NCBI GenBank assembly: GCA_964421445.1
Contig: CAYQXL010000001.1
Coordinates: 1,981-65,980, forward strand
Reading direction: 5' to 3'
Length of the DNA: 64,000 bases
Source of the DNA: an uncultured Pseudomonadota bacterium
GTDB taxonomy: Bacteria; Desulfobacterota; Syntrophorhabdia; Syntrophorhabdales; CAYQXL01
Shown in pieces: positions 18,067 to 42,452 of the stretch; within the stretch, counting starts at the first letter, position 1, and the number at the start of each line of letters is the position of its first letter. Below the pieces are notes generated by a model, which worked only from the letters and a program-made list of their open reading frames with translations, was not told the origin of the DNA and made no database searches. Made by a program: the position numbers and the translations under genes.

Positions 18067-18098
18067 TCACTTCTCTCCTGCAGAATCTAGTATTATAT

Positions 18099-19169: not shown

Positions 19170-19811
19170 TCACTTTTTGTCACCCTTGCCACCGGTGATC
19201 GAGTCACTGTAGTATGCGGCTATGGAGGCTATTTCACGGAACAGAACGGCCCGTGAGGTTCCGTCTTTCCACCAGCCCGTCTGATGAAAATATGTTACGG
19301 CAACAGGTTTTATCATGTATGCCACTTTGCCGTCCTCCTGTCCTGAGCCAAAAAGGAGATGAAAACGGCGGGATGCATAGTCGGGAACGACAACGATCAC
19401 CTTTTTGAAACCGGCCGCAGTGAACTGCTCCCGAACCCTGGCGGTCATGGCTCGTCTGTCCGCCGGGAGGGAGACGGCCCGTATCACCGCATCCTTCACC
19501 CCTCTGTTCCTGGCGAGTTTCTGCACAAACTCGGTGATGCTTGTTCCGAGGATCTTGTCGTCTTCTATCCAGATGGCCCGGGCATTTCCCCTGCCGTACT
19601 CGCGGAATGCCTCGTCGAAGAGTTCGCCCTGCCTGTCCTCAGGAAACCTGGGAATGTAGACCGCATCGGCGGAGAAGACCTTGTCTTCGTACCGGAACTG
19701 ATTCCCTATGAACTTCAGCGATAAGGGGTGCATCATCAGGCCGGCAATCACCATGCAGAAAGCCACGAGAAAGACCAGACAGCCGCAACCCGACTTTCCC
19801 GCTTTTCCCAT
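19170..19811 (-). CDS. Membrane-anchored DUF218/YdcF-like protein
   Basis: The start is set at MGKAGKSG (Met71 of the track ORF), because the extension overlaps rsmE. There is one TM segment. KKVIVVVPDYASRRFHLLF resembles the VTSxYHMxRA block of the family. Confidence 0.45.
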   Translation of the reverse strand: MGKAGKSGCGCLVFLVAFCMVIAGLMMHPLSLKFIGNQFRYEDKVFSADAVYIPRFPEDRQGELFDEAFREYGRGNARAIWIEDDKILGTSITEFVQKLARNRGVKDAVIRAVSLPADRRAMTARVREQFTAAGFKKVIVVVPDYASRRFHLLFGSGQEDGKVAYMIKPVAVTYFHQTGWWKDGTSRAVLFREIASIAAYYSDSITGGKGDKK

Positions 19812-19887
19812 TACCGCTCGTCCTTCCGGGGCGGCACGTCTTCTTCCTGATGTGCGCTGGTTTCTGGCCGGCTTTCCTGTCAAGATG

Positions 19888-20627: not shown

Positions 20628-21596
20628 TTATCCTTCCGGGGGCTTATAGAATTTTGATTCGTACAGCCGATGGTATTCGGTCCACCGTTCGTTTTCCATA
20701 TTTTCGATCATGTATTCCTCCACCCCCGTGACTTTTGCGTCAAGGTTGTCGAGACAATGAATCGCTATTGCTTCCACACACATTGGCTTGCGGGGCGATC
20801 CCCATTCCTCTGTTCCATGGTGACTCAGGATAATATGCGTGAGAAGGGTGGCCAACTCGTCAGGGAACGACGCCATCTCCCTTCTGATGTCATCAAAGAT
20901 CATCACACCCAGGGTGATGTGACCGAGGAGACGGCCCCTGTCAGAGTACTTGAAGCCTCCCCTGAAATGTATTTCCTCCGTTTTTCCTATGTCGTGCAAC
21001 AGACTGCCGGTTATGATTATATCAGAATTTCCGCCGTATATACCAATCACCCTCTCAGCCATGAGGGCCACGTTGAGGGAATGTTCCGCAAGACCTCCGA
21101 TGGAGAAGTGATGGATACCGATCGATGCGGGGACCGTGAAAAACCGGTCCATAAGAGTCTTCCGCTCCTGAAACCTAACGAAAAACTCCTGGAGAAAAGG
21201 GTTGGTGATTCGCCCCACCGTGTCGAGAAGTCGTGCTTCCAGCTCTTGTCTGCCGTATCTGCTCTGCCGGTAAAACTTCCCTAGGGTTTCGGCCGAATCA
21301 TCGAGCTCGGGCTTTTCGATCCGCTCCACTTTGAGCTGTGCCTTCCCCTGAAAGAAGGTCCGTTTTCCTGTAACCTGAATGATATCGCCTTTTTCAAAGA
21401 GAGGGCCGTATTTGTCGACAAGGTCTTCTTCCCAGAGCCGTGCTTCGATTGTTCCTGTTCTGTCGCGGAGAAGGAGGGACATGAACCGCTGATCTGTTTT
21501 GGTGAGCGAGATGCTTTTCGAGCCGACCATGAAGCAATCTTCGATATAACCGCTCGCCGAGCCGGCGATGTCCTTCACGTACGTCCTGGGGTTCAC
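20628..21596 (-). CDS. OB-fold + HD-domain 3'-5' exoribonuclease, YhaM-like
   Basis: The N-terminal OB fold reads RFMSLLLRDRTGTIEARLWE. HD motifs are GGLAEHSL, LLHDIGK and SHHG. Confidence 0.75.
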   Translation of the reverse strand: MNPRTYVKDIAGSASGYIEDCFMVGSKSISLTKTDQRFMSLLLRDRTGTIEARLWEEDLVDKYGPLFEKGDIIQVTGKRTFFQGKAQLKVERIEKPELDDSAETLGKFYRQSRYGRQELEARLLDTVGRITNPFLQEFFVRFQERKTLMDRFFTVPASIGIHHFSIGGLAEHSLNVALMAERVIGIYGGNSDIIITGSLLHDIGKTEEIHFRGGFKYSDRGRLLGHITLGVMIFDDIRREMASFPDELATLLTHIILSHHGTEEWGSPRKPMCVEAIAIHCLDNLDAKVTGVEEYMIENMENERWTEYHRLYESKFYKPPEG

Positions 21597-22555
21597 CGGT
21601 CTTCTCCGAAGTGTTCGTATCCTTTTCTGGCAACGGTGATGCGCTTTCCCTGCCGGTAGACCTTTACACCCCTGCCGCCGGAGACTTCTCCGATGACGGA
21701 GATCCTTAATCCCTGCCGGACCATCGATTCGACAGCGGCGAAACGTGTCTGGGGGAAGGTGAAGAGGAGTTGATAGTCTTCGCCGCCTGAGAGTGCAAGG
21801 TCGAGCCGTCCTGCTTTCTTCAGTTCCTCCGGCACAGGAACGCGGTCAATGTCGATGCGGGCCCCTGTGTGGCTCTCCTTCATCATCCGCTCCAGGTCTA
21901 TGAGGAGACCATCGCTGACATCCATCATTCCGTTCGGGATAGATCGTTCGACCAACTCTTTCCATTCCTCGAGAGGAGGCCTCGGACTGGTGTGGCGGTC
22001 GATGAACGGCTTCAGGACCCCTGTCTTCACCCCTTTCTGAAGGAGTTCGAGCCCGTAGGCACTTTCGCCCAGAACGCCGGTAACAGCTATGAGATCGCCT
22101 TTCCGGGCCTTTTCACGGCCATAGTATTTCCTGTTCCGAAGATGTCCTGTCATCGATACATCGACAAAGAAGCCTGTTTTTGATTCGACCGTATCGCCGC
22201 CCAGGAGGGAGACGCCGAACTCCCGGGCCGCCTGGTCCATACCCTTGTAGAAATCACGGATCCGGCGATACGAGAGATCTTTGGTAAGGCCGATGGTGAC
22301 GAGATAGTAGAGGGGATCGGCGCCCATGGAAAGAATATCGGAGATGTTGACGTAGAGGGCTTTGCGACCGAGGGCTGTAAGGGATGTGCCGGCGAAGGTG
22401 AAATGGACGTTCTCGACCATGGCGTCCTGGGTGAAGACGTACCATTCCGACCCCATCTCGACGACGGCACAATCGTCACCTATGCCCCGGATGATCCTGT
22501 TGCCGTGACCGGCAAAGGGGTGGAGCCGCTGAATGAGTTGGTTTTCTCTGATCAT
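21593..22555 (-). CDS. thiL: Thiamine-monophosphate kinase
   Basis: GIGDDCAVV, AIR-synthase-like fold motifs (GGDT, MDVSDGL). It overlaps the downstream gene by 4 nt. Confidence 0.85.
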   Translation of the reverse strand: MIRENQLIQRLHPFAGHGNRIIRGIGDDCAVVEMGSEWYVFTQDAMVENVHFTFAGTSLTALGRKALYVNISDILSMGADPLYYLVTIGLTKDLSYRRIRDFYKGMDQAAREFGVSLLGGDTVESKTGFFVDVSMTGHLRNRKYYGREKARKGDLIAVTGVLGESAYGLELLQKGVKTGVLKPFIDRHTSPRPPLEEWKELVERSIPNGMMDVSDGLLIDLERMMKESHTGARIDIDRVPVPEELKKAGRLDLALSGGEDYQLLFTFPQTRFAAVESMVRQGLRISVIGEVSGGRGVKVYRQGKRITVARKGYEHFGEDR

Positions 22556-24972: not shown

Positions 24973-26877
24973 ATGAAAGACGACAGAATTTCCCATCATG
25001 AGTCAGTGCGCCGGGTCTATGAGCGCATCAAAAAGGACGGCATGGACAACATCTGGGATCGCTACGAAGCACAGGGGTTGGGGCCGAACCCTGACCAGAG
25101 GTGTCCGTTCTGTCAGGGTGGGGTCCGGTGCGACCTCTGTTCCAACGGTCCCTGCCGGGCTGACGTGGCGAAGGACAAAAAGGGTGTATGCGGTATCACC
25201 GGCGACGGGATGGCAATGCGGATGATGCTTTTGAGAAATGTTATGGGGGCATCGACATACCACTATCACACGGAGCAGACGATCAAGACCCTCCGGGCGA
25301 CGGCGAAGAACCGTTCTCCCTTCCGGATCACCGAACCGGAGAAGCTGGCAACCTTTGCGACGCGCCTCGGTGTACCTCTTTCTTCTTCACCGGAAGAGAC
25401 AGCCCTCGCATTCTGCGATGCCGTGGAAGCGGACTTTAACGGGAAGTATGACGAACCGAGCCGGATTGTCGACATGCTTGCTCCCCAAGAGCGAAAAACG
25501 CGGTGGACCGAACTGGGCATATTCCCCGGTGGCATTTACGGCGAGATGATGTTTTCCACCAGTTCGTGTCTGACGAACGTCGACGGCTATTATGTCAGCC
25601 TCGCTCTGAAGGCGATGCGCCTCGGCATTGCCATGGCCTACCAGAGCCAGATCGTCAACGAATACTGTCAGGACATACTCTTCGGCATTCCCAGGCCCCA
25701 CGCGATCCGTGTCGATCTCGGTGTCCTTGACCCCGACTATGTCAATGCCCTGACGAACGGACACGAACCCTTTCTCGGTTTTGCCATGGTCCAGCTCGCC
25801 AGAACCGAAGAGTGGCAGGCGAAAGCGAGGGCTGCCGGGGCAAAGGGGCTGAGGGTCATCGCCAACATTGAAACGGGCCAGGAGATGATTCAGCGGTGGA
25901 CGATGGACGACGCATTCTATGGGTTTACGGGGAACTGGATTATGCAGGAGGCCGTTCTCGCGACAGGGTGTGTGGACCTCTTTGCCTGCGATATGAACTG
26001 TTCCATGCCGATCGATCCGCTCTATGCGGAGAAATACAGATTTAAACTGATTCCGGTCAGTCAACTCGTTGCCTTTGAGGGGGTATCGGAGAGGATCGAC
26101 TATGAACCGGAACGGGCCCGGGAGCAGGCGGCGGCGCTTCTCGACATGGCGATCGGGAACTTTCCCGGCAGGCGGTCGTCGGTTACACCGTTGACAGGAC
26201 TGCCGATGGGGGAGGCGATCGTTGGTTTTTCAACGGAGAGTATCGTCGACGCCCTCGGGGGAACGATCGAACCGCTGATGAATGCCGTCAGGAATGGGAC
26301 GATCCGTGGAATTGCAGGCCTCGTTTCGTGCACGACCCTCAGGGACACCGGCCAGGATGTTCACAGTGTTCGTGTTGCCAGGGAACTGATCAAAAGGGAT
26401 ATCCTTGTCCTGTCGATGGGGTGCGGCAATGGTGCCATGCAGGTGGCAGGCCTGTGCAGTCCCGACGCGAAAGCATTTGCCGGTCCCGGTCTCCGGTCAA
26501 TCTGCGAGGCTCTGGCGGTTCCGCCTGTTCTCAGTTACGGGACGTGTACCGATACAGGACGGATTGCCGACCTTCTGTCCGTTGTGTCTGCAGCCCTGGG
26601 CGGTGTCGCCATACCGGACCTTCCCGTTGTGGCCGTGGCGCCGGAATACATGGAGCAGAAGGCGACCATTGACGCTGTCTTTGCACTGGCTCTGGGACTC
26701 TATACATACGTTAATCCCGTCCCTACCGTAACCGGTGGTCTCAATCTCGTCAAACTGCTGACCGCTGATCTTCCTTCTGTCACAGGGGGGTTGCTGAACG
26801 TGGAGACCGATGCAGTCAAAGCCGTCGACGGCCTCGCGGAGCACATCGAAAGGAAGCGGAGGGCATTGGGGATGTAA
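24973..26877 (+). CDS. cooS: CooS-family (anaerobic CO dehydrogenase scaffold) protein with a deviant C-cluster ligand set
   Basis: N-terminal Cys clusters are CPFCQGGVRCDLCSNGPCRA...GVCGI. Conserved blocks are NGHEP, CDMNCSMP, LVSCTT, SMGCGNG and YGTCTDTGR. The canonical GICCTGNE block reads ANIETGQE here. Confidence 0.8.
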   Translation: MKDDRISHHESVRRVYERIKKDGMDNIWDRYEAQGLGPNPDQRCPFCQGGVRCDLCSNGPCRADVAKDKKGVCGITGDGMAMRMMLLRNVMGASTYHYHTEQTIKTLRATAKNRSPFRITEPEKLATFATRLGVPLSSSPEETALAFCDAVEADFNGKYDEPSRIVDMLAPQERKTRWTELGIFPGGIYGEMMFSTSSCLTNVDGYYVSLALKAMRLGIAMAYQSQIVNEYCQDILFGIPRPHAIRVDLGVLDPDYVNALTNGHEPFLGFAMVQLARTEEWQAKARAAGAKGLRVIANIETGQEMIQRWTMDDAFYGFTGNWIMQEAVLATGCVDLFACDMNCSMPIDPLYAEKYRFKLIPVSQLVAFEGVSERIDYEPERAREQAAALLDMAIGNFPGRRSSVTPLTGLPMGEAIVGFSTESIVDALGGTIEPLMNAVRNGTIRGIAGLVSCTTLRDTGQDVHSVRVARELIKRDILVLSMGCGNGAMQVAGLCSPDAKAFAGPGLRSICEALAVPPVLSYGTCTDTGRIADLLSVVSAALGGVAIPDLPVVAVAPEYMEQKATIDAVFALALGLYTYVNPVPTVTGGLNLVKLLTADLPSVTGGLLNVETDAVKAVDGLAEHIERKRRALGM

Positions 26878-26918: not shown

Positions 26919-26950
26919 CCGGTGACAGGCCGGCTCAGGCCTGTCACCGG
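26919..26950. terminator. Bidirectional hairpin between convergent genes
   Basis: ccggtgacaggcc-ggctca-ggcctgtcaccgg is a perfect 13-bp GC-rich stem, followed by gttctcttct on the + strand. It lies between the cooS-family stop (26877) and the stop of the minus-strand selenoprotein gene (26959). Confidence 0.6.
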
Positions 26951-26958
26951 GTTCTCTT

Positions 26959-27531
26959 CTAAGGAATGAGTCTGTACGGCATCGCTCTCTTGGTCCACAT
27001 ATTTCCCGGATATGCGCCTGAGAGCTGATCCCATGCCTGGCGGAGGGGTTTGGGATCATGGGTATGTTTATATCCTGTCACGCCTTTCCAGAATATGGCC
27101 GCAGGTGCCGAATCGGTGGCGGAAAAGGTGGTGATGATCCGATCGAGGAGTGCGAGGGTTTCGGGATATTTGTCAAAGTCGTAATACATCTTTGATATGC
27201 CGAGAAGCACTGAGGGAATAAATTCTTCAACGGTCAGATAGCCGACGGTCCGGGAATGCTCCTTTCCTTCCCAGTCGAGAATAATCAGGGCCGGAGTCCA
27301 CTTGATGCCGAACTGTGTCGCCAGGGGCTCCGAGTCTGCCGGGATGCGAAGGGGAACAACGGTCTGGTTGACGAAATCTGTTACAGCTTTGTCGGGATAC
27401 GTCACCGTATCCATCTGCTGGCACCCAATTCACCCAGGGTTGAAAAAGTCGAGAAATATTGGTTTCTTCTCAGCCGCTGCCCTGGCCACGGCTCTGCTCA
27501 TATCCGTTTCCCATACGATTCCGTTTCCCAT
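26959..27531 (-). CDS. Thioredoxin-fold selenoprotein (UxxC redox motif; in-frame TGA = Sec at codon 34)
   Basis: The track lists only 26959..27414. Upstream in the same frame: AGGAGG, 5 nt, then ATG(27531) GGA AAC... This gives MGNGIVWETDMSRAVARAAAEKKPIFLDFFNPG-TGA(27432..27430)-IGCQQMDTVTYPDKAVTDFVN... The TGA falls at the first Cys of the family's KPxxxDFxxxxCxxCxxMD motif. A hairpin follows 17 nt downstream. Confidence 0.75.
27395..27412 (-). other. Candidate bacterial SECIS hairpin
   Basis: On the mRNA strand it reads GGAUACG-GUGA-CGUAUCC, a 7-bp stem with a 4-nt loop starting with G. The stem begins 17 nt after the UGA. Confidence 0.55.
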
Positions 27532-27536: not shown

Positions 27537-27688
27537 CCTCCTGATAGATTAAGTTATGTCTCTCTGATTATAGTCGCAAATGGTTCTTCCGGCAAGGGGT
27601 CCGTTCGCCGGGGACCTGGAGATTCTGGTATACTATGGTATGGTACGGCACGGGCCTGTAATGAGAATTTGTTCATTGTGAGGAGCGT

Positions 27689-28024
27689 ATGAAAAGAGAG
27701 AATCGGCCGGACCCTGAACCGGAGGAACGGTTCGATACGGTCCGGCGGCATATCGTGAACCTTTTGTGCGAATACGAACTTTCGGCCCGGGAGATAAGCC
27801 GGACGCTCCATGTGCCCGAGCGGGAGGTCAATGACCATCTCGATCATATCCGCCGGAGTCTCCACCATCAAAACCGGAGGCTTGTCGTTACCCCCGCCCT
27901 CTGTGATCACTGCGGGTTTGTCTTTTCGAAGAGAGACCGGGTTTCAAAACCGGGCAAATGTCCCGATTGCCACAGAGGGACGATACGTGCGCCCCGCTTT
28001 TCAATCCCTACTTCCTCACGGTGA
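27689..28024 (+). CDS. Small transcriptional regulator: HTH domain fused to a C-terminal zinc ribbon
   Basis: RFDTVRRHIVNLLCEYELSAREISRTLHVPEREVNDHLDHI is wHTH-like. It is followed by CDHCGFVF...KCPDCH (CxxC...CxxC). Confidence 0.6.
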   Translation: MKRENRPDPEPEERFDTVRRHIVNLLCEYELSAREISRTLHVPEREVNDHLDHIRRSLHHQNRRLVVTPALCDHCGFVFSKRDRVSKPGKCPDCHRGTIRAPRFSIPTSSR

Positions 28025-30137
28025 AAACGACCTCATCGAGGACTGTTCCCTCTCCGTCGACGAGCCTGAGGGAGTGACGGCCCGCTTCGGGAATCCAGGG
28101 TTGGACTGAACCCTGTCCCAGGGGCCTGCCGTTCAGTGTCCACATTACCTGCCCTTCGTCGGGCGACGCTTCAAAGACCATCTTCTGTGCTTTTTCAGGG
28201 ATATCAGGATCGAGAGCGATTGTTGTTCCACCGGTCGGGTAGACAATGGAAGGAACGACAAGGGATTTTTCTGTCTCTCCCAGTACACGGGGTTCGGTTC
28301 CTCTGATGAACCATTCGTTCCGGACAGGCGGACCATTCTGCTGAACCAGTTGGAGGCGCTCAATGCCCGAAGGAGGGGGTGGTGGGCCGGACGGGAGTGA
28401 TCTGTGGAGATAGCGCATGATGTCGTGCCACAGGGGCGCAGCACCGGATACGCCGCTGACATTCCACATCGGCGACCCGGAGAAGTTACCGACCCAGACG
28501 CCGACGGTATAGAGGCGGGAAAACCCGATGCACCAGTTGTCCCTCATATCTTTACTCGTCCCCGTTTTAACGGAGGTCCAGAATGGTGTGGAAAGGGGGT
28601 TTTCCAGGCCGAATGTTGTACTCCGGGCCCCCCGGTCGCTGAGGATATCGGAAACGATGAACGATGCCTCCTTCGAGAAGACCCTTTTTTCTGCAGGCTT
28701 GCCGCCACCAGCCTCGATGCTGAGGGGTATGGAGAGGCCATTCCGTGCCAGGACGAGATATGCCTGGACGAGTTCATAGAGACTGACATCGATCGATCCC
28801 AGGGCCAGTGAGTAGCCGTAGTGGTCCGAATCGTAAAGGTTGGAGAAGCCGAGAAGACGGAGTGTTTCAACGAACCTGTCCTCCCCTGTGGCCAGAATTG
28901 TCCGAACGGCGGGAATGTTCAGTGACGACGCGAGGGCGATCCGTGCCGGCACCGGCCCCCGGTATCTGTTGTCGTAATTGTCGGGCCGGTAGATCCCCCG
29001 TTCAGTGAAGAGATCGATCGGCGAGTCGCTGATGAGCGATCCTGCCGTGAGAAGCTTCAGGTCGAAAGCCAGGGCATAGAGAAAGGGTTTCAGGGTCGAT
29101 CCGGCCTGCCGCCGTGCTGCTGCACCATCAACAAAGGGAGCACTCGAGTATATTCCCCCGTTCCCCACATAGGCGAGGATCTGACCGGTCCGGTTGTCTG
29201 CCACGAGAACGGCCCCGTCCCTGACATTCTTCTCCTTCAGTTCTCCGAGATATGCCCTGAGAACGGTGGAGGCAAAAGCCTGGAGGTCTCCGTCGAGGGT
29301 GCACTCGAACGCAATTTTTCCGGGGCGAGCCAAAAGCCGGGCGACGTGGGGGGCAAGGGACACCTGTGCTGGGATCCGGTAGGGCTGTCCCAGGCTGTCG
29401 GAAAGGACTCGGGTCAAATCGGAGGGAGGACTTTCCCAGGCCAGCGCCCCGGCGAGCCGTGCGACCCGCTGTGTGAGAGCAGGAATCGCCGCATTCGGTG
29501 ACCGGATGAGGGCGGCGAGAACAAGGGACTCAATCTGACTCAGCCCCGACGGTTCCTTCTGAAAGAGACCCTTCGATGCAGCCCTTATGCCCTGGAGTTC
29601 GCCGCGAAAGGAGACGAGGTTGAGATAGGCTTCCAGTATCTGATCCTTGGACCATCGTTTTTCGATTGCCTGTGCCGACCTCATCTGGAGAAGCTTGCCT
29701 TCCCACGATCGCTCTTTCGTCAGCCCCTTAATGTCCGGATCGATAATCTTGGCCAGTTGCATCGTCAGCGTGCTTGCCCCTCTCCTTCCACTCTGCCGGA
29801 CGTACGTCAGGACGGCACTCGCGACGGCCCGCCAGTCAACACCCCTATGGGATGTAAACCGGCGGTCTTCGGAGCAGATGACGGCGTCGATAAGGGCCGG
29901 AGAAACGTCTTTCAGCGGTACCCAGCCAAAGGACCGTCCCTGGAGATCGACGCGCAGTTCGTGGATCACGGAGCCGTTTCTGTCTCTCAGTGTGATGTCC
30001 GACGGCCTGTGCGAGGCGACGAGATCGCTGTATGCCGGAATAGCGGGCCTGTCGGCAGGCCGGAGGATGAGGACGAGACCTGTCCCGAGGCACAGAAGAA
30101 GAATCGCCGCGATGGACAGGATCAGCCCTCTTTTCAT
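28008..30137 (-). CDS. pbpC: Penicillin-binding protein 1C (bifunctional glycosyltransferase/transpeptidase family)
   Basis: The true start is MKRGLILSIAAILLL at ATG 30137, forming an ATGA overlap with the upstream stop. GT51 motifs are AVICSEDRRFTSHRGVD and GASTLTMQLAK. The transpeptidase motif is AGSTLKPFLY. There is a C-terminal PbpC domain. The 276-aa N-terminal extension in the track ORF is out-of-frame overlap with the A2M gene. Confidence 0.9.
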   Translation of the reverse strand: MKRGLILSIAAILLLCLGTGLVLILRPADRPAIPAYSDLVASHRPSDITLRDRNGSVIHELRVDLQGRSFGWVPLKDVSPALIDAVICSEDRRFTSHRGVDWRAVASAVLTYVRQSGRRGASTLTMQLAKIIDPDIKGLTKERSWEGKLLQMRSAQAIEKRWSKDQILEAYLNLVSFRGELQGIRAASKGLFQKEPSGLSQIESLVLAALIRSPNAAIPALTQRVARLAGALAWESPPSDLTRVLSDSLGQPYRIPAQVSLAPHVARLLARPGKIAFECTLDGDLQAFASTVLRAYLGELKEKNVRDGAVLVADNRTGQILAYVGNGGIYSSAPFVDGAAARRQAGSTLKPFLYALAFDLKLLTAGSLISDSPIDLFTERGIYRPDNYDNRYRGPVPARIALASSLNIPAVRTILATGEDRFVETLRLLGFSNLYDSDHYGYSLALGSIDVSLYELVQAYLVLARNGLSIPLSIEAGGGKPAEKRVFSKEASFIVSDILSDRGARSTTFGLENPLSTPFWTSVKTGTSKDMRDNWCIGFSRLYTVGVWVGNFSGSPMWNVSGVSGAAPLWHDIMRYLHRSLPSGPPPPPSGIERLQLVQQNGPPVRNEWFIRGTEPRVLGETEKSLVVPSIVYPTGGTTIALDPDIPEKAQKMVFEASPDEGQVMWTLNGRPLGQGSVQPWIPEAGRHSLRLVDGEGTVLDEVVFTVRK

Positions 30138-33100
30138 CTCTTTTCCCCGGGATGGATGGAGAAGAGGGGGTTTGGTATCTCGCCGAACATATCGGGAGCG
30201 TAGAGTGCCTCGAGCCGTGTCGCAGGAAGGCCGAAAACCCCGGCGGTGTTGAGGCGGACAGTGTATTCGACGGACCATTTCCCTTTTGGTACGAACTGGT
30301 AGTAGGCCCGGAATGCAGTGGAACTTCGTTCGGTAAAGTCCGGTCTGATCCACCCCCTGACCCGTTCGCCGGAGGTGAGAATCGACGAATCCCGGCCGAG
30401 TTGCCCTCCGAGAATTGTTGCTCCCGAGGGAACGGGATCGGACAGGACGACCCAGGTCATGTCGGACTGGGCTTCCATATCCACGCGGACTCTTGTTACG
30501 TCTCCCGCAGTCCACTGCCTGGGCGACTGCCTGTCGACGGGGGTCAGGGTCTTCGTCACTCTGAACCCGGCAAAAGCTGGTGCCGCGAGAGGTATGGCGG
30601 CGAGGCTTGACACGGATGCCCACGGCGCCCCCCGCCCGGTCTGTCTGATAGTGACGGTCCCTTTCTCCCGGGGCCAGGGAAAGTCGAACGATGCCCCCTT
30701 TGGCGCCTGGTTCCAGTCTGTAGATCTCTCTGTACCCAGGGAAACGGTTGTTGTGCCTGAGAGGGGTATGTTTTCGAAGTGGCGGGCAAACTTGTTCACC
30801 GCCTCTACGCCCCAGGCATTGGCTACTGTTGTTGACCATCGGCCTTCGGTACGGCGGGCGAGAGCCCCCCTGACGAGTTTTGGCATGTCGTCTTTCCACC
30901 GGGGATGAGTGAGAAATGTGAGAATCGTCCGGAGACTGTTGGTGTCGGTGTTCGACATGAGCCACCAGAGGCTGTCCCCTTTGTCCGTAGAAAAGGTGAG
31001 GACCGAACCGTGGAATGTGATCCGGGACCTAAGGATCTGCTCTGCCTGCTTTTGTCTTGTCTCTTTCTCTGTCACCGGGATGCGGGCCAGGATTCCGATC
31101 CAGTCAAGAAGGGCCGATGTGGGCCACAGATTCGGTTCAATCCGGATCGATTCAACGTGTTTGGCCGATGCCTTCCCCTTTCGTGAAAGGGCTTCGATGG
31201 CTGCGAGCTTCCTTATCGTCAGGTCGGGTACCGGGAAGGGCTGGGGCCGTTCAGTCTTTCCTTCGACAAACGCCGTGAGGGCCGCGATGACCCGGTCTTC
31301 AACATTTTTTGGCAGAGCAATGCCAGCTTCATGGGAGATGGCAAGGACGTAAGAGGAGAGGATATCGCTCCCCCTGGCCATGTCGGGGAAGTATTTGAGA
31401 AAGCCCTCGCTGTCGAGGTAGGTCGCCAATTCGGCCATGATCGGACCCCACTCCTTCTGGTTCCGGGACACGATGGCTTTGGAGATTTTCTGTTCGAGAC
31501 ATGTAAAGGGATAGGTATTCATATAATCGGCAACAGGCGAGAGGCTTCCCGACAACGATGGTGAAAGTGTCACCGAGACCCCTCCCTTTCCTTCGACCGC
31601 TTCCTTCGGTTTCTCCACAGGGACGGTGGAGTGACCGGTAATCTGGGAGAGGCGGGACTGGATGACCCGAACAGGGACGAGGGGTGCTACGGTCTGGGTC
31701 GTCTTCAGACTGTCACGAATCGTCCCTGACGGATCCCGGGCCGTGACCGTCCACGTGATGGCGGATGTATGTGCCGGGACCGTTATATCCCAGGCCATCT
31801 CCTTCGCCTCCCCCGGCTGAATCGTTTCTGTGCGCGGTGGGAGGACAGGCGGCTGACCTGTTCCCGATATGCCCACCGATGCCGAGAGCGTCAGCCTTTC
31901 CGGTTTATCCGTTGTGTTCCGGACCGTGAAGGATGCGGGAAATCTGTCCTGTTCCCGGACGGTCAGGGGAATGGCCGACGCAAGAACAATCTCCTGGTGC
32001 GTCCGGATAGTGCCCGTTCCCGTTCCGAAGAACTGTTCCCCTGCCGTGGCGATCGCAGCGACGACGAAACCGGTAATCGAATCGTTCAGGGGAAAGGTGA
32101 TCGTTGCTTCGCCGTGGCTGTCGAGAGGAACTGTTCCCTTCCAGTAGACGAGGGTGTCGAAGAGTTCCCTGGTCAGTTGTTTTCCTCCTCCGCCCCCGCG
32201 GGGAAGGGCCTTGAGGCCGTAGTGACGTTTTCCGATGACCTGACTCTGAGCCGTCGAGGTCCTGAAACTGTACCCCCGTTTTCTCATCATCCGCTCGAGG
32301 AGCCCCCAGCTTTTATTCTGGGCGAGTTCGAGAAGACCCTCATCAACAACGGCTACTGTGACCGATGCCGGAGCCGGCGGGACTTCCCCCCGTCCCGTCC
32401 GTGCCTGGACCTTGACGGACGCATTTTCTCTGACACGGTAGGTCTTCTTCTCCGGGAGAACGGCTACCTTCAGCTCGTGTGCCGACCAGCCTACGGCAAT
32501 TTCGGCTATACCGAGCTTGAATAACGGTTTGGCGGGATCGAACATGGCTGTCGGCTTTGGTCCTTTGACCCGGCCCCGTACTGCCAGGACTGAGACGAAG
32601 ATGTTCGGTGCATAACCCTCTTTCACCGGGAGCTCAATGACCGGTTCCTTTCCTGACAACTCGGTGACGAAGGCATCGAGGATACCTTCCCGCTCAACGG
32701 TGACGAGTACGGTTGCTTCCCTCATCGGTGCCCGTACCTGAAACCGGGCTTTTTCCCCAGGTTCATACCGCCGCTTCTCAGGAATGAGATCTATTCTGTC
32801 GCCATCTCCCACATCAAACCACCATTCATCGTCGCCGGATATCCACAGCCCTTCGTTGACAAGGGAGATATTTCCCGAGCCATCGTCGGCACGGCCTTCG
32901 ATGATGAAGTTTCCCGATCCCGGCGCAGGCATGGTGCACAGAAGCAGGCCCCGGTTGTCCGTTATGCCGCTGCAGCCGGCAACGGCTGGCTTGATCTCGC
33001 GGACATGTTCATAGGAGTAGAAACCTCCGATGAGCCGTTTCCGGTGGGAGAGGAAGTCCTGTTTAAAGATCTGGGAACTGACAGATATTCCGGACAATGG

Positions 33101-35980
33101 CTTACCTCCCGTGTCGAGAGCTACGATCTGGTACGAGAGCGTCCCTTTTGCCGAAACCCAAGAGTCTGTCCTCAGGCCGGCAAGGGCGCGGGACGGCCAA
33201 AGCGTGATTCGCCTGGAAACGGTCTGGATCTCTCCGTTCGGGTCCCTGAATTCCAGTTCCGTCAGGAGTTCACGAACCTCCGGGGAGACGGGGACATCAT
33301 CAACGGTAATCCGGGCTGCTCCTGTCGTGTCAAGCTTTACATCCCTGGTTGTGAGGGATTTTGTTGTCCCTGCCGCCGGGGATGTGCGAGACCCTCTTTC
33401 TCCGTCATCGCTGGTATCATCGTCCTGCTGGTCATCTCCCCTCCGGGAGATACCAGGCTTTACGCCGCCGTTGGCGACGATAAAATCGTCGTAACTGTCG
33501 AAGGTCACCTGTTTCGGGAGAACCTGGCCTCTCAGTCTGACAGGCAGGGCCCGGGCAGGACCGCCCGAAAGATGTTCGACGGCGAGATCGATGTCGACCT
33601 GGGATGGTCTCACCAACTCACCTCCCGGTACCCGTATTGTTGCTTTCATGAGGGGTACTTTGAATTCCTCCACCCGAAAACCACCGGAAAGAAGGGGTGG
33701 CTGACGGTCCGATGGCTCCTTTCCTCCCTTCTTTTCCTTCCAGACCATGCTGACGCTGTAAGAGCCGAGCTTTGCTCCTTTCGGGACGGACCACAGGTTC
33801 TCCGCCGATCCCGTCTTTCTGTCCCAGACAAGTGGCAGGGTATATTTCTCCGACGTTCCCACATGCTCCAGGATGAGTCTTTCAGGAAGGTCCCCTTTTT
33901 CGAGACCGAGACCCTGGACAGACTCCTTCCTGATGAGATGCTTCATATGGAGGTGATCACCGGCCCGGATTAGCGTGCGGTCGAAGATAGTGTGGGCGAT
34001 GACCGCCTGACCGGAGCCTTCCGTTGTGAGGCGGAAACGGTACGGCTCGATCCCTTCGTCCCACCCTGAGTGGACGAAAGTGAGGTCGCCGTCCTTTCCT
34101 GCGAAGACAAAGAGGCCGGAGGTGATCGACTGGAGTGCATGGAGCTGGGATGAGTCATAGTGGAGATCGGAATCCTGTTTGAGGCGGCAGGAGGCCGTTT
34201 CGTCGGGGTTGGGGAGAACTGTCCGTATCTGTCCGATTCCGTTCTGGTCTGTAAGTCCCTTCCAGAGAACTTTACCGGTACAGTCCCTCACCGTTACCGA
34301 TGCGTTCTCGACCGGTCGACCGCTGTCGAGGTACGTTACCCAGACGAGAGATGATTCACGGCCCCACTTCAGGTGGGCCGAGAGATTGGTTACAAGGGCT
34401 CCTGTCGGGACGAAGAGTGATCGTTGTTTGCCGAGGAGAGACTGACCGAGGATGGCGCTCTCCAGTTCGACGACGTGGAAACCGGTCTGTTTGAGGGGAA
34501 GTCCGATCACTTCGAAAGCCTTCTGGCCACCGGGTCGGGGTATGGAGAAAGACTGTAAGCCGTGAGCACCGGCGAAGACCGACCGGGATCTCCCTGTGAC
34601 GGCCAGTTTCTTCAACCAGGCGATGATCTCGGTCTCGGTGGTCACCGCCTTCACCCGAGCAGATACGGGACCAGTTCCCTTTGTCCGATCCTCTCTCTCC
34701 GGCTGGGCCAGTCGCTTCGTCTCCGGTGTTTCGGCGCTGTCGGGACCTTCGGGACTGTCGATAACCGTATGGCCCGCCAGGTTCGGCTCGATGTTTCGTA
34801 CTGTCACAGGGAGGACGGGATCATCGTTTTCGACGATTCCGAAACGGGAGGAGAATTTCGCCAGCGGTGGATAGGGGCCGACGGAAACGGTGGAAGGAAA
34901 TTTAGCCCTGTTCGAAAGCCGCCGGCCGGCATCATCTTTAAGGGTGTCCGGGATTGTAATGACGGCGGAACTGTTCTCTGAAAAGGGCCCGGGAAATGTG
35001 GCCCGGTACACATAATCTCCGCCCTGGGGGTCAGGAACGGCTCTATATGTCCGGTTGTTGGCGACGAGTGTGATCTGTGACGCGAGGTTCTTTGACACAG
35101 GAGCGGAAAACCGGATATGGAGGGGAAGAATGGGGATGCACCCCGACTTCGGTGTTTCCTTGGGGCAGTGGATGGTTGCCGTGAAGGGCCCCCGGGTCTT
35201 GTAGGTGAAGATCTGGTCCGCTGTTGTTTTGACGCCTGACCTCGACCTGATCCCTTTTCCCCAAACGATCGTTACCGGAGATTTCGGAGGGAGAGGCCGG
35301 GCACACTGGAACACGATGACCGGTTTCTTCTCCCCGCTGCCCTGTCCGATGTATTCGGCCCGGAGAATGTCGTTCTTCACTTTTCCCTGAATGATCGTGA
35401 TGCCCACCCGTTCTTTCGTTGCGGGAAGAAAACACGAGGCGAACTGCCGGACTGTAGCTTCCTCCGGTTCACCGTTCAGAATGGCGATAAAAGCCTGATT
35501 CTCGTCTATGTCCGTACTGTCCTTGTGGGGGACCATATCGGTGACTGCCGGTCCGCCGGTGGAGAACGAAAACGATCGTCTGCCTGTGATGGGTTGTCCG
35601 GCAAGGGTCCTTGTCCCGGGGCTTATGACGAAGGAGCAATCGACACCGGCCGGAAGGTCCTTGTCGAAATCATACACCCAGGTCCGTTCGTCGAGCCACC
35701 GTCCCTTGCCGGGAAGAGGACAGGTGATGGTGAAGGGGTCGGAAGACCGGGGGTTTCCGAAAGGCACCATGGGAACAGAAAAACGGGTTGACACCTGGTG
35801 AACCTTTTTTACCTGCCCTGATGGGCTGAATGCCTCGACGAGGGCCTCCTTCGCGAAAGCGGTGTGAGGTGTGAAGGAGAGGATGAAAAAAGAGAGGATG
35901 AGGATAAAAGAGCAGGGGAGATGCGGGAATTCTCGACGACGGTATGTGATTCGGTTCTTCATGGCCACCCCCGTGAACAT
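30134..35980 (-). CDS. Bacterial alpha-2-macroglobulin (YfhM/ECAM-type) with intact thioester motif
   Basis: 1948 aa with a signal peptide (..TPHTAFA). The thioester CLEQ is present in YPFTCLEQKISKA. It is classically paired with pbpC. An alternative start at ATG 35962 (MKNRITY) is possible. Confidence 0.9.
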   Translation of the reverse strand: MFTGVAMKNRITYRRREFPHLPCSFILILSFFILSFTPHTAFAKEALVEAFSPSGQVKKVHQVSTRFSVPMVPFGNPRSSDPFTITCPLPGKGRWLDERTWVYDFDKDLPAGVDCSFVISPGTRTLAGQPITGRRSFSFSTGGPAVTDMVPHKDSTDIDENQAFIAILNGEPEEATVRQFASCFLPATKERVGITIIQGKVKNDILRAEYIGQGSGEKKPVIVFQCARPLPPKSPVTIVWGKGIRSRSGVKTTADQIFTYKTRGPFTATIHCPKETPKSGCIPILPLHIRFSAPVSKNLASQITLVANNRTYRAVPDPQGGDYVYRATFPGPFSENSSAVITIPDTLKDDAGRRLSNRAKFPSTVSVGPYPPLAKFSSRFGIVENDDPVLPVTVRNIEPNLAGHTVIDSPEGPDSAETPETKRLAQPEREDRTKGTGPVSARVKAVTTETEIIAWLKKLAVTGRSRSVFAGAHGLQSFSIPRPGGQKAFEVIGLPLKQTGFHVVELESAILGQSLLGKQRSLFVPTGALVTNLSAHLKWGRESSLVWVTYLDSGRPVENASVTVRDCTGKVLWKGLTDQNGIGQIRTVLPNPDETASCRLKQDSDLHYDSSQLHALQSITSGLFVFAGKDGDLTFVHSGWDEGIEPYRFRLTTEGSGQAVIAHTIFDRTLIRAGDHLHMKHLIRKESVQGLGLEKGDLPERLILEHVGTSEKYTLPLVWDRKTGSAENLWSVPKGAKLGSYSVSMVWKEKKGGKEPSDRQPPLLSGGFRVEEFKVPLMKATIRVPGGELVRPSQVDIDLAVEHLSGGPARALPVRLRGQVLPKQVTFDSYDDFIVANGGVKPGISRRGDDQQDDDTSDDGERGSRTSPAAGTTKSLTTRDVKLDTTGAARITVDDVPVSPEVRELLTELEFRDPNGEIQTVSRRITLWPSRALAGLRTDSWVSAKGTLSYQIVALDTGGKPLSGISVSSQIFKQDFLSHRKRLIGGFYSYEHVREIKPAVAGCSGITDNRGLLLCTMPAPGSGNFIIEGRADDGSGNISLVNEGLWISGDDEWWFDVGDGDRIDLIPEKRRYEPGEKARFQVRAPMREATVLVTVEREGILDAFVTELSGKEPVIELPVKEGYAPNIFVSVLAVRGRVKGPKPTAMFDPAKPLFKLGIAEIAVGWSAHELKVAVLPEKKTYRVRENASVKVQARTGRGEVPPAPASVTVAVVDEGLLELAQNKSWGLLERMMRKRGYSFRTSTAQSQVIGKRHYGLKALPRGGGGGKQLTRELFDTLVYWKGTVPLDSHGEATITFPLNDSITGFVVAAIATAGEQFFGTGTGTIRTHQEIVLASAIPLTVREQDRFPASFTVRNTTDKPERLTLSASVGISGTGQPPVLPPRTETIQPGEAKEMAWDITVPAHTSAITWTVTARDPSGTIRDSLKTTQTVAPLVPVRVIQSRLSQITGHSTVPVEKPKEAVEGKGGVSVTLSPSLSGSLSPVADYMNTYPFTCLEQKISKAIVSRNQKEWGPIMAELATYLDSEGFLKYFPDMARGSDILSSYVLAISHEAGIALPKNVEDRVIAALTAFVEGKTERPQPFPVPDLTIRKLAAIEALSRKGKASAKHVESIRIEPNLWPTSALLDWIGILARIPVTEKETRQKQAEQILRSRITFHGSVLTFSTDKGDSLWWLMSNTDTNSLRTILTFLTHPRWKDDMPKLVRGALARRTEGRWSTTVANAWGVEAVNKFARHFENIPLSGTTTVSLGTERSTDWNQAPKGASFDFPWPREKGTVTIRQTGRGAPWASVSSLAAIPLAAPAFAGFRVTKTLTPVDRQSPRQWTAGDVTRVRVDMEAQSDMTWVVLSDPVPSGATILGGQLGRDSSILTSGERVRGWIRPDFTERSSTAFRAYYQFVPKGKWSVEYTVRLNTAGVFGLPATRLEALYAPDMFGEIPNPLFSIHPGEKR

Positions 35981-42268: not shown

Positions 42269-42452
42269 TGGTCCTCCCTCCATCTTCGTTGTGCCACCAT
42301 CCTCTGTCTATTATCTCCGGCGCTGGGACGAATGTAAAGAGGCTTTCATGGGGCCCGCCGTCCGATAATGCCAGACGGGGGGTCACTCGGGGCGCCGTCT
42401 GTGGTAGTATAATAGCTGTTCCGAGATGAACGCTGCTGTATAGGGGTGATCT

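What the first reader, a model, noticed from the sequence alone, without database searches (positions are those of the whole stretch)
26959..27531. Selenocysteine-containing thioredoxin-fold protein hidden by an in-frame TGA (UxxC motif plus SECIS-like hairpin)
The ORF track reports only a 151-aa fragment (MDTVTYPDK...) with a thioredoxin-like beta-alpha core but no redox motif. Reading the same frame upstream gives a consensus AGGAGG, 5 nt, then ATG at 27531. The translation is MGNGIVWETDMSRAVARAAAEKKPIFLDFFNPG-TGA-IGCQQMD... The TGA (27432..27430) sits at the first Cys of the family signature KPxxxDFxxxxCxxCxxMD, producing U-I-G-C. A perfect hairpin GGAUACG-GUGA-CGUAUCC starts 17 nt after the UGA. 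This is the distance and G-containing apical loop expected for a bacterial SECIS. Automated annotation would truncate this gene and lose its active site.
Basis: partly seen in the sequence, partly recalled or inferred. Interest (0 to 1): 0.7.

Follow-up and report, generated by a model that had tools for sequence, protein, structure and literature searches.

The report
Mis-annotated selenocysteine thioredoxin-fold gene, known family
The in-frame TGA is very probably a real selenocysteine codon in a 190-residue thioredoxin-fold protein, but the family was already predicted as a bacterial selenoprotein in 2004-2006, so this is a correct call about a known family that public annotation still truncates.

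Summary
Window 27531..26959 (- strand) encodes a 190-codon gene with one in-frame TGA at 27432..27430, giving FFNPG-U-IGC-QQMD.

- With U read as C, the Pfam Thioredoxin_2 score rises from 21.5 bits (below cut-off) to 46.9 bits over the whole profile.
- Of 164 related loci fetched, 162 carry TGA at this codon and 2 carry TGC. All conserve the 33 upstream codons. More distant full-length homologues have Cys there.
- A 6-bp hairpin lies 17 nt after the UGA, with a 7th pair in the window copy and a GUNA/GUNU loop. It forms completely in 149 of 150 unique Sec-form genes. About 13 would be expected if the same amino acids used the family's own codon usage.
- The hairpin shows compensatory changes, some of which change amino acids. 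It meets all four published bSECIS criteria.
- TGA ends 13 of 36 other genes in the window, so the genetic code is standard.

The family is not new. Zhang et al. 2006 (PMC1794560, Additional file 4) list Geobacter proteins with FFNPGUIGCKQMDAV under 'Thiol:disulfide interchange protein'. The window protein is 50% and 44% identical to them.

What remains useful: RefSeq still splits these genes, the family is much more widespread than reported, and its function is untested.

The parts
26959..27531 (-). Complete coding sequence of the selenoprotein: 190 codons plus a TAG stop, with Sec at codon 34.
   Evidence: Translation. Pfam Thioredoxin_2 scores 46.9 bits over profile positions 1-101 when U is read as C. 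The protein is 50% identical (E 4e-80) to the G. uraniumreducens selenoprotein listed in PMC1794560 Additional file 4.
27537..27542 (-). Shine-Dalgarno sequence AGGAGG, 5 nt before the ATG at 27531..27529.
   Evidence: Read directly from the sequence. Homologous loci also have a GGAGG-type site before a start codon at the same position.
27567..27595 (-). Putative sigma-70-type promoter: TTGCCG, 17 nt, TATAAT.
   Evidence: Consensus scan gives 10 of 12 matches. One site was found against 0.7 expected, so this is only a lead.
27430..27432 (-). In-frame UGA read as selenocysteine (U34), the first residue of the U-I-G-C redox motif.
   Evidence: TGA at this codon in 162 of 164 related loci and TGC in 2. 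Cys at the aligned column in full-length homologues.
27421..27423 (-). TGC codon for Cys37, the resolving cysteine of the UxxC motif.
   Evidence: Invariant column C37 in alignment A2.
27395..27412 (-). SECIS hairpin GGAUACG-GUGA-CGUAUCC, inside codons 40-46 (M-D-T-V-T-Y-P). It starts 17 nt after the UGA, and the loop starts 24 nt after it.
   Evidence: MFE is -10.4 kcal/mol. Six core pairs are 99-100% paired in 141 unique sequences, with A-U to G-C (16) and U-A to A-U (11) double changes. Synonymous entropy is about zero only at D41, T44 and Y45. The resampling and slide controls support it. It meets the bSECIS criteria quoted.
27292..27294 (-). Codon for Pro80 in the W-T-P motif. I infer this is the cis-proline loop of the thioredoxin fold, facing the active site.
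   Evidence: Invariant column P80. It immediately precedes strand 81-85 in the model.
27178..27531 (-). Thioredoxin-fold domain (residues 1 to about 118), of the DsbD-gamma / DsbH / Thioredoxin_7 type.
   Evidence: Pfam PF13098, PF13899 and PF03190. The AlphaFold model of the Cys homologue has pLDDT 97. Foldseek matches DsbD-gamma (1uc7, TMt 0.71) and DsbH (2ju5).
26968..27168 (-). C-terminal all-helical, TPR-like domain (residues about 122-188). This is the part current annotation names.
   Evidence: Helices 122-135, 141-157, 160-173 and 178-188 in the model. Faint TPR_6 hits and a weak BamD/YfiO match. Whole-length fold matches to the Trx+TPR proteins YbbN/CnoX, 3qou and 3qdn.
26919..26950 (.). 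Perfect 13-bp GC-rich inverted repeat between the two convergent genes (this gene and cooS). It is probably a shared terminator.
   Evidence: The terminator-like scan scores it on the + strand with tail GTTCTCTTCT. It lies 9 nt after this gene's stop and 42 nt after the cooS stop.

Best explanation
Window 27531..26959 (- strand) is a single gene for a 190-residue cytoplasmic selenoprotein. The ribosome reaches UGA at codon 34. The hairpin 17 nt downstream, built from codons 40-46, acts as a bacterial SECIS: it recruits SelB-GTP-Sec-tRNA(Sec), and selenocysteine is inserted instead of terminating.

The product has an N-terminal thioredoxin fold of the DsbD-gamma/DsbH type. Its active site is U34-I-G-C37, at the start of helix 35-44 and facing the conserved W-T-P80 loop. 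A C-terminal TPR-like helical bundle follows.

It most likely works as a thiol-disulfide oxidoreductase. The selenolate of U34 attacks a substrate disulfide or other oxidised sulfur species, forming a mixed selenenylsulfide. C37 resolves this into an internal Se-S bond, which a cellular reductant then reduces. The helical domain probably binds the client or partner.

- **Shown here:** gene structure, the Cys/Sec pairing, conservation and covariation of the hairpin, the fold, and family membership.
- **Inferred:** Sec insertion itself, the catalytic cycle, the substrate and the reductant.
For: - **Gene anatomy:**
- **Domain completed by read-through:** Thioredoxin_2 rises from 21.5 to 46.9 bits and covers profile positions 1-101.
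- **Conservation of the TGA:** 162 of 164 loci have TGA and 2 have TGC. The 33 upstream codons are conserved in all. Hosts include Syntrophorhabdus aromaticivorans UI, Ca. Brocadia, Ca. Jettenia, Nitrospirota, Desulfobacterales, Syntrophaceae and Geobacteraceae.
- **Cys forms:** they have C-x-x-C at the aligned columns, with C37 and P80 invariant.
- **Hairpin:** six pairs are 99-100% kept, with double compensatory changes, some altering amino acids (GAU/UAU to GGA/UUC = D41G+Y45F).
- **Synonymous sites:** GAT 131/131, ACG 131/131 and TAT 133/138, while about 120 other conserved columns are near maximal synonymous entropy.
- **Controls:** 149/150 observed against 13 +/- 3.4 expected; 99.9% paired in register against 22-65% when slid.
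- **bSECIS criteria:** as quoted from PMC13188914, all met.
- **Standard code:** TGA ends 13 of 36 Pfam-supported genes in the window.
- **Family identity:** the G. metallireducens and G. uraniumreducens sequences in PMC1794560 Additional file 4 carry FFNPGUIGCKQMDAV. They are 44% and 50% identical to the window protein over the full length.
- **Fold:** pLDDT 97.2. Nearest solved structures are DsbD-gamma, DsbH and YbbN/CnoX.
Against: - No selA, selB, selD or tRNA-Sec lies in the 64-kb window, so the Sec-decoding trait of this particular organism is unverified.
- Rfam has no matching SECIS model.
- In this single sequence the local fold is no better than shuffles.
- One Cys-form homologue (L172) still has a perfect 7-bp hairpin of different sequence at the same place. 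The hairpin is therefore not strictly tied to TGA, although recent Sec-to-Cys conversion would explain this.
- There is no conserved operon partner, and no member has been tested experimentally, so the chemistry is inferred from the fold and motif.
Confidence: 0.88

Rival explanations
1. The TGA is a true stop. The locus is either a decayed gene or two separate small genes, a 33-aa peptide and a 151-aa 'TPR' protein, as current annotation has it.
For: Gene callers and RefSeq annotate it this way: a 33-aa 'thioredoxin family protein' WP_230402456.1 plus a 150-aa 'tetratricopeptide repeat protein'. One homologous locus (L109) has an additional in-frame TAG.
Against: A pseudogene would not keep the same single TGA, the same frame and a conserved 33-codon N-terminus in 162 loci spread over several phyla. 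The 151-aa fragment lacks half of its thioredoxin fold and scores below the Pfam cut-off. The Cys forms are single 186-203 aa proteins.
Confidence: 0.02
2. The UGA is decoded as something other than Sec. Either the organism uses a reassigned code (table 4 or 25: Trp or Gly), or near-cognate read-through inserts Trp or Cys.
For: Some gene calls on short Logan contigs read the codon as W and give 189-aa proteins.
Against: TGA terminates 13 of 36 well-supported genes in the window, and G+C is 54%. The position aligns only with Cys, the catalytic residue of a CxxC motif. A dedicated conserved hairpin fits SelB-dependent recoding. Cultured hosts of the family, such as Geobacter and Syntrophus, are documented Sec-decoding organisms with SelD and other selenoproteins.
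Confidence: 0.04
3. The gene is a selenoprotein, but the conserved hairpin is not the SECIS, or not only the SECIS. It could be a translational pause or mRNA-stability element that exists independently of Sec.
For: The Cys-form homologue L172 keeps a fully compensated 7-bp hairpin (GGAAAAG-GUUA-CUUUUCC) at the same codons. L001 and L171 keep weakened versions.
Against: Position, stem length, loop size and the G-U at the start of the loop all match the published bSECIS model. More distant Cys-only homologues (L173, L174) have no hairpin there. Clusters at 90% identity mix Cys and truncated (Sec) members, so conversions are recent and a leftover SECIS is expected. RNAalifold finds no alternative conserved structure in the 60 nt after the UGA.
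Confidence: 0.05

Closest known systems
'Thiol:disulfide interchange protein' selenoprotein family (Kryukov & Gladyshev 2004, EMBO Rep 5:538; Zhang et al. 2006, Genome Biol 7:R94; listed as PF13098 / UxxC / WP_011366075.1, 'predicted with high confidence', in PMC9312934 and PMC13188914)
   Same: Same length (186-190 aa) and the same FFNPG-U-IGC-[QK]QMDAV-[TA]-YP active-site block. Identity over the whole protein is 50% to G. uraniumreducens and 44% to G. metallireducens. The Pfam assignment is the same.
   Different: Nothing essential differs. This is an orthologue in an uncultured organism. In 2006 the family was reported from 3 genomes (Geobacter x2, Syntrophus). Here it turns up in several hundred loci, including anammox Planctomycetota, Nitrospirota and Syntrophorhabdia.
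DsbD C-terminal (gamma) domain and DsbH (Thioredoxin_7 / Thioredox_DsbH folds)
   Same: Best structural matches for the N-terminal domain are 1uc7, 2fwf, 4ip1 and 2ju5: TMt 0.60-0.71, rmsd 2.1-3.0 A, 22-25% identity. The CxxC-type active site sits at the start of the first long helix.
   Different: DsbD is a three-domain inner-membrane electron transporter, and DsbH is periplasmic. This protein is 190 aa and begins directly with the Trx domain, with no signal peptide or membrane segment visible in sequence or model. It carries a helical C-terminal domain and uses Sec. NCBIfam DsbD scores 34.5 bits against a cut-off of 330. The family name is therefore a historical label, not a functional assignment.
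YbbN / CnoX 'chaperedoxin' (thioredoxin domain fused to a TPR domain; PDB 3qou, 3qdn)
   Same: Same two-module architecture, an N-terminal Trx fold followed by TPR-like helices. These are the top whole-length Foldseek hits (E about 1e-6, 189-196 aligned columns).
   Different: Only 14% identity, TMq 0.41-0.42 and a global rmsd of 11-12 A, so the domain arrangement or length differs (YbbN is about 285 aa). There is no sequence-family match. No holdase activity is known for this family.
E. coli fdhF-type bacterial SECIS / bSECIS consensus (Zhang & Gladyshev 2005)
   Same: A stem-loop inside the coding region just after the UGA, with a small apical loop starting with G-U. The UGA-to-loop distance of 24 nt falls within the 16-37 nt range.
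   Different: The sequence is unrelated to fdhF. The stem is short (6-7 bp) and built entirely from seven conserved codons. No bulged U is evident. SelB binding is untested.

Membership tests
'Thiol:disulfide interchange protein' selenoprotein family (Kryukov & Gladyshev 2004 / Zhang et al. 2006) | Full-length sequence homology to the listed members from G. metallireducens and G. uraniumreducens. | tested here: met
   BLASTP gives 50% identity (E 4e-80) and 44% identity (E 4e-59) over 185 residues without gaps. The reference sequences come from PMC1794560 Additional file 4.
'Thiol:disulfide interchange protein' selenoprotein family (Kryukov & Gladyshev 2004 / Zhang et al. 2006) | A UxxC motif in a Thioredoxin_2 (PF13098) domain, with Sec encoded by an in-frame TGA. 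| tested here: met
   U34-I-G-C37. PF13098 scores 46.9 bits against a cut-off of 27.
'Thiol:disulfide interchange protein' selenoprotein family (Kryukov & Gladyshev 2004 / Zhang et al. 2006) | Cys-containing homologues with Cys aligned to the TGA (a Cys/Sec pair). | tested here: met
   P0002 has CIGC. In alignment A2, C34 is nearly invariant and C37 invariant. Named examples are the Geomonas 'thioredoxin fold domain-containing' proteins.
'Thiol:disulfide interchange protein' selenoprotein family (Kryukov & Gladyshev 2004 / Zhang et al. 2006) | The host genome has the Sec-decoding trait (selA, selB, selC, selD). | tested here: inconclusive
   None of these is in the 64-kb window: the only tRNA is tRNA-Gly, and the AIRS-family gene at 21593-22555 is ThiL, not SelD. 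The rest of the genome was not available.
'Thiol:disulfide interchange protein' selenoprotein family (Kryukov & Gladyshev 2004 / Zhang et al. 2006) | Selenium is actually incorporated at the UGA position. | not testable with these tools
   Needs 75Se labelling or mass spectrometry. The 2026 review lists the family as predicted, not experimentally verified.
Bacterial SECIS element (bSECIS consensus model, as quoted in PMC13188914) | Apical loop of 3-9 nt on an upper stem of 4-16 bp. | tested here: met
   The window copy has a 7-bp stem and a 4-nt loop (GUGA). The family has a 6-bp core with a 4- or 6-nt loop.
Bacterial SECIS element (bSECIS consensus model, as quoted in PMC13188914) | G in one of the first two loop positions, usually followed by G or U. 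| tested here: met
   The loop is GUNA or GUNU in all 141 unique sequences. This is partly confounded, because GU is also the start of a conserved Val codon.
Bacterial SECIS element (bSECIS consensus model, as quoted in PMC13188914) | 16-37 nt between the UGA and the apical loop. | tested here: met
   A 17-nt spacer plus a 7-nt arm gives 24 nt.
Bacterial SECIS element (bSECIS consensus model, as quoted in PMC13188914) | MFE of -7.5 kcal/mol or lower. | tested here: met
   -10.4 kcal/mol for the window hairpin. 128 of 141 family members pass, with a mean of -9.2.
Bacterial SECIS element (bSECIS consensus model, as quoted in PMC13188914) | The structure is maintained by selection beyond what the protein sequence requires. 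| tested here: met
   Zero synonymous entropy occurs only at the stem codons. Observed 149/150 against 13 +/- 3.4 expected. Compensatory double changes are present.
Bacterial SECIS element (bSECIS consensus model, as quoted in PMC13188914) | Binds SelB and is required for UGA recoding. | not testable with these tools
   Needs a binding or reporter assay.
DsbD, the true thiol:disulfide interchange protein (NCBIfam NF001419) | Whole-protein match to a three-domain membrane protein of about 570 aa. | tested here: not met
   34.5 bits against a cut-off of 330. Only profile positions 464-566 (the gamma domain) are matched, and the protein is 190 aa.
Thioredoxin proper (TIGR01068 / PF00085) | Score above the curated cut-off. 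| tested here: not met
   TIGR01068 scores 23.4 against 96.8, and PF00085 scores 22.7 against 23.5.
YbbN/CnoX chaperedoxin | A Trx domain plus a TPR domain, with sequence or fold-level equivalence over the whole length. | tested here: inconclusive
   The architecture is shared and these are the top Foldseek hits (E about 1e-6). However, TMq is 0.41, rmsd 11 A and identity 14%, and there is no sequence-family hit.

The most novel reading that the evidence does not exclude
The family may not be a plain disulfide reductase. It could be a selenocysteine-dependent counterpart of CnoX/YbbN-type 'chaperedoxins'. In that reading the TPR-like domain holds client proteins and U34 forms protective or repairing mixed Se-S bonds with their oxidised cysteines in strict anaerobes. 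In some lineages it would be recharged by a ferredoxin:thioredoxin-reductase/glutaredoxin module encoded next to it (5 Desulfobacterales loci). No Sec-using chaperedoxin is known.
Probability: 0.12. Interest if true: 0.45.

Novelty: new member of a known kind. Interest (0 to 1): 0.22.

Why it matters
**Annotation.** This is a clean case of a systematic error. Every database protein of the Sec form that I retrieved is a 150-155 aa fragment without its active site. RefSeq names these fragments 'tetratricopeptide repeat protein', and sometimes adds a separate 33-aa 'thioredoxin family protein'. NCBIfam 20.0 has no model that passes its cut-off for this family. A family model with a Sec-aware rule would correct several hundred genes.

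**Biology.** The data extend a selenoprotein family known from three deltaproteobacterial genomes to anammox bacteria, Nitrospirota and Syntrophorhabdia. Within this subfamily Sec is the dominant state, not the exception. The SECIS is unusually well resolved: its covariation reaches into the protein sequence, with D41G paired to Y45F.

**Limits.** None of this changes how Sec decoding is understood, and the protein's function remains untested.

Tried and rejected
- **Rfam.** Neither the gathering threshold on the whole window nor E<=10 on 27330-27480 found a SECIS family. Rfam has no general bacterial SECIS model, so this says little.
- **Single-sequence folding.** A 71-nt stretch gave no signal above shuffles. 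Only the comparative analysis was decisive.
- **SelD candidate.** The AIRS/AIRS_C gene at 21593-22555 is ThiL: TIGR01379 scores 283 bits against 61 bits for selD, which is below cut-off.
- **A second selenoprotein in the window.** I scanned for ORFs extended by reading through one TGA. The striking 640-codon candidate at 18099-20021 (-) is just two adjacent same-frame genes, an unknown gene followed by one I read as dprA from its sequence motifs. The LepA extension is spurious.
- **Structure.** Single-sequence AlphaFold failed (pLDDT 37). Alignment A3 worked.
- **Exact look-up with U.** The tool rejects U, and replacing U with X found nothing. I could not see directly whether any source stores a full-length Sec form.
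- **Literature.** Kryukov & Gladyshev 2004 is not held. A full-text search for the motif 'GUIGC' found nothing relevant. The link to the known family came from the supplementary sequences of PMC1794560.
- **Gene neighbourhood.** Clustering over 83 loci found no conserved partner. The largest cluster, generic LuxR-type response regulators, is present in only 11 loci.
Full report
**1. The observation**

On the - strand, AGGAGG (27542..27537) is followed after 5 nt by ATG (27531..27529). The frame then runs 190 codons to TAG (26961..26959), with one internal TGA at 27432..27430. The translation is MGNGIVWETDMSRAVARAAAEKKPIFLDFFNPG-TGA-IGCQQMDTVTYP... The mechanically listed 151-aa ORF starts at Met40. 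The hairpin GGAUACG-GUGA-CGUAUCC lies at 27412..27395, which is 17 nt after the UGA.

**2. Is the upstream part coding?**

Yes.
- With the TGA read as Cys, the Pfam Thioredoxin_2 match rises from 21.5 bits (below the 27-bit cut-off, profile positions 62-101 only) to 46.9 bits over positions 1-101. Thioredoxin_7 and Thioredox_DsbH also pass.
- A word-indexed search of 5.8 billion proteins returned 27 relatives. Of these, 26 are fragments of 135-152 aa covering only the part downstream of the TGA. The one full-length protein (P0002, 190 aa, 53% identical) has CIGC where the window has U-IGC.
- In several contigs gene callers also report a separate 33-aa ORF ending at the TGA.

**3. Comparative evidence for Sec**

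I fetched 80 loci from species-representative genomes and 80 from metagenomes, plus the contigs of P0002 and P0003.
- All 164 loci contain the conserved block [DSF]F[FYH]xxx-[TGA/TGC]-xxC-xxM. Of these, 162 have TGA and 2 have TGC; the two are near-identical contigs.
- The 33 codons before the TGA are conserved, and nearly all complete loci have a start codon 33 codons upstream.
- Hosts named in the records include Syntrophorhabdus aromaticivorans UI, Ca. Brocadia sapporoensis and pituitae, Ca. Jettenia, Nitrospirota, Thermodesulfovibrionia, Desulfobacterales, Syntrophaceae and Geobacteraceae.
- An exhaustive HMMER scan of 1.84 billion representatives found 471 proteins at E<=1e-10. They are a mixture of about 150-aa fragments starting at query position 40 (Sec forms) and 186-203-aa full-length proteins. 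The full-length ones carry C-x-x-C at the aligned place.
- In alignment A2 the Sec column is nearly invariant Cys. C37, P80 (the W-T-P loop) and G97 are invariant.
- TGA is an ordinary stop in this organism: it ends 13 of 36 Pfam-supported genes in the window. The codon is therefore recoded, not reassigned.

**4. The hairpin is a selected RNA structure**

The stem is built from codons 40-46 (M-D-[A/T]-V-[T/S]-Y-P), so amino-acid conservation could mimic a structure. Four tests separate the two.
- **Synonymous sites.** Among about 120 alignment columns with a conserved, degenerate amino acid in 151 unique genes, synonymous entropy is near maximal everywhere except three codons: D41 (GAT 131/131), T44 (ACG 131/131) and Y45 (TAT 133/138). 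Their third positions pair within the stem. The five TAC exceptions sit opposite a G that replaces the A partner.
- **Pair counts.** In 141 unique TGA sequences the six core pairs are 99.3-100% paired. Double compensatory changes occur at pair 3 (A-U to G-C, 16 sequences) and pair 4 (U-A to A-U, 11 sequences). Some of these change the protein in a coupled way: GAU/UAU (D, Y) becomes GGA/UUC (G, F).
- **Resampling.** Re-encoding each gene's own residues with the family's codon usage gives a complete stem in 13 +/- 3.4 of 150 genes (maximum 26 in 2000 trials). The observed number is 149.
- **Slide control.** Sliding the 3' arm by 1-3 nt drops pairing from 99.9% to 22-65%.

The structure meets the published bSECIS consensus quoted in PMC13188914:
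- loop of 3-9 nt on a 4-16 bp stem;
- G in the first two loop positions, usually followed by G or U;
- 16-37 nt from UGA to loop (here 24 nt);
- MFE of -7.5 or lower (here -10.4 kcal/mol).

As a small control I looked at five Cys-form genes.
- The two distant ones (L173, L174) have no hairpin.
- L001 and L171 have weakened ones.
- L172 has a perfect hairpin of different sequence.

I read the last as a leftover from a recent Sec-to-Cys change, because 90%-identity clusters mix full-length Cys and truncated members. It is the one observation that does not fit neatly.

**5. What the protein is**

An AlphaFold model of the Cys homologue P0002, built on a 33-sequence alignment, has pLDDT 97.2 and pTM 0.91.
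- The N-terminal part is a thioredoxin fold (strands 25-30, 59-64, 81-85 and 91-96). The U/C34-x-x-C37 motif sits at the start of helix 35-44, and P80 lies just before strand 81-85.
- The C-terminal part is a bundle of helices (122-188).
- Foldseek against the PDB gives DsbD-gamma (1uc7, 2fwf), DsbH (2ju5) and a Thioredox_DsbH protein for the N-terminal domain. The Trx+TPR proteins YbbN/CnoX (3qou, 3qdn) are the best whole-length hits, with poor global superposition.
- There is no signal peptide or membrane segment apparent, and the protein starts directly with the Trx domain. I infer it is cytoplasmic.
- NCBIfam 20.0 has no family that passes its cut-off. The best is TsoB at 44.6 bits against 805, through its DsbD-like part.

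**6. Context**

The gene stands alone.
- Downstream, convergent, is the anaerobic CO dehydrogenase catalytic subunit cooS (24973-26877, TIGR01702 693 bits). A perfect 13-bp inverted repeat lies between them at 26919-26950.
- Upstream, divergent, is a PF0610-like HTH/zinc-ribbon protein (27689-28024), followed by a PBP1C-type penicillin-binding protein.
- Across 83 loci no neighbour family is shared by more than 11 loci.
- A subset of 4-5 Desulfobacterales loci has a glutaredoxin gene and the ferredoxin:thioredoxin reductase catalytic chain immediately downstream. This hints at a possible reductant.
- No Sec-machinery gene lies in the window.

**7. Comparison with what is known**

[quoted passage not shown] Zhang et al. 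2006 report it in G. metallireducens, G. uraniumreducens and Syntrophus aciditrophicus.

Their Additional file 4 gives the sequences...LLDFFNPGUIGCKQMDAVAYP... and ...LLDFFNPGUIGCKQMDAVTYP.... The window protein aligns to them without gaps over 185 residues, at 44% and 50% identity (E 4e-59 and 4e-80). Membership is therefore established at sequence level.

The family name is historical. The protein is not DsbD (34.5 bits against a cut-off of 330).

**8. State of public annotation**

- RefSeq has the S. aromaticivorans orthologue as a 150-aa 'tetratricopeptide repeat protein' (WP_028894869.1).
- The Brocadia orthologues appear as a 33-aa 'thioredoxin family protein' plus a 150-aa TPR protein.
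- A few Logan gene calls read the TGA as Trp.
- Cys forms in Geomonas are named 'DUF255 / thioredoxin fold domain-containing protein'.

**9. Verdict**

The gene is a real, intact selenoprotein gene with a well-supported SECIS (confidence about 0.9 for Sec recoding). The catalytic mechanism is inferred from fold and motif.

It is a new member of a known, computationally predicted family, so it would not surprise a specialist. Three things are new here:
- the breadth of the family;
- the dominance of the Sec state in this subfamily;
- the quality of the SECIS covariation, together with the persistent annotation error.

Interest is low to modest.

Noticed in passing
L172:254-829 (metagenome contig, Cys form P0257): This Cys-containing homologue (TGT at the Sec position) keeps a perfect 7-bp hairpin, GGAAAAG-GUUA-CUUUUCC, at the same codons. 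Five of its pairs differ from the Sec-form consensus and all are compensated. Either it converted from Sec very recently, or the hairpin does something besides SECIS function.
   Followed up: partly
L031:3636-4219 and 3-4 similar Desulfobacterales loci: A glutaredoxin gene (PF00462) lies 67 nt downstream of the selenoprotein gene on the same strand, followed by a ferredoxin:thioredoxin reductase catalytic beta chain gene (PF02943). This is a possible dedicated reducing system, but it is seen in only 4-5 of 83 loci.
   Followed up: partly
L109 (metagenome contig Ga0116185_1085748), codon 38 of the homologue: Besides the Sec TGA, this copy has an in-frame TAG replacing the conserved Gln (U-I-G-C-*-Q-M-D). 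It may be a sequencing error, a pseudogene or something else; I did not resolve it.
   Followed up: no
P0040, P0041, P0051, P0256 (Logan short contigs): Gene calls on short contigs translate the Sec TGA as Trp and give 189-aa 'full-length' proteins. The caller apparently switched to a TGA-sense code because read-through gave a longer ORF. Such entries could mislead Cys/Sec comparisons.
   Followed up: yes
window 18099-20021 (-): Two adjacent genes share one frame, separated by a single TGA at 19172..19170, which gives an apparent 640-codon read-through ORF. They are a 283-aa protein without Pfam hits and a downstream gene that I read as dprA from its sequence motifs only (its Pfam was not run on this strand), lying upstream of topA. 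This is not a selenoprotein. The + strand ORF 18036-19112 (358 aa, no Pfam hit) overlapping the putative dprA is probably spurious.
   Followed up: yes
window 41324-42283 (-): This is a DUF523 (PF04463, 2-thiouracil desulfurase-like) + DUF1722 protein. The 2026 review lists DUF523 proteins with an SxSUG motif as a recently predicted selenoprotein family. The window copy has Cys (GVSKCLLG), so it is a Cys form.
   Followed up: partly
window 26919-26950: A perfect 13-bp GC-rich inverted repeat with a 6-nt loop lies between the convergent selenoprotein gene and cooS. It is probably a shared or bidirectional terminator. Only the + strand orientation has a T-rich tail.
   Followed up: partly
window 27554-27910 (-) versus 27689-28024 (+): Two overlapping ORFs lie upstream of the selenoprotein gene, and different public gene calls pick different ones. 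Only the + strand ORF has domain support (PF0610-like HTH plus zinc ribbon), so the 118-aa - strand ORF is probably spurious.
   Followed up: partly
window 28008-35980 (-): A PBP1C-type penicillin-binding protein (Transgly, Transpeptidase, BiPBP_C) sits directly downstream of a 1948-aa ORF. I recall that bacterial alpha-2-macroglobulin is typically paired with PbpC, but I did not scan the large ORF. The listed 985-aa PBP ORF also starts far upstream of its first domain, so its true start is probably later.
   Followed up: no
L003:6557-7762 versus L004:2034-3236: The neighbouring Creatinase_N/Peptidase_M24 gene is one 400-aa ORF in L004, but is split into 117-aa and 222-aa ORFs in the otherwise near-identical L003. 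This is probably a frameshift or assembly error.
   Followed up: no
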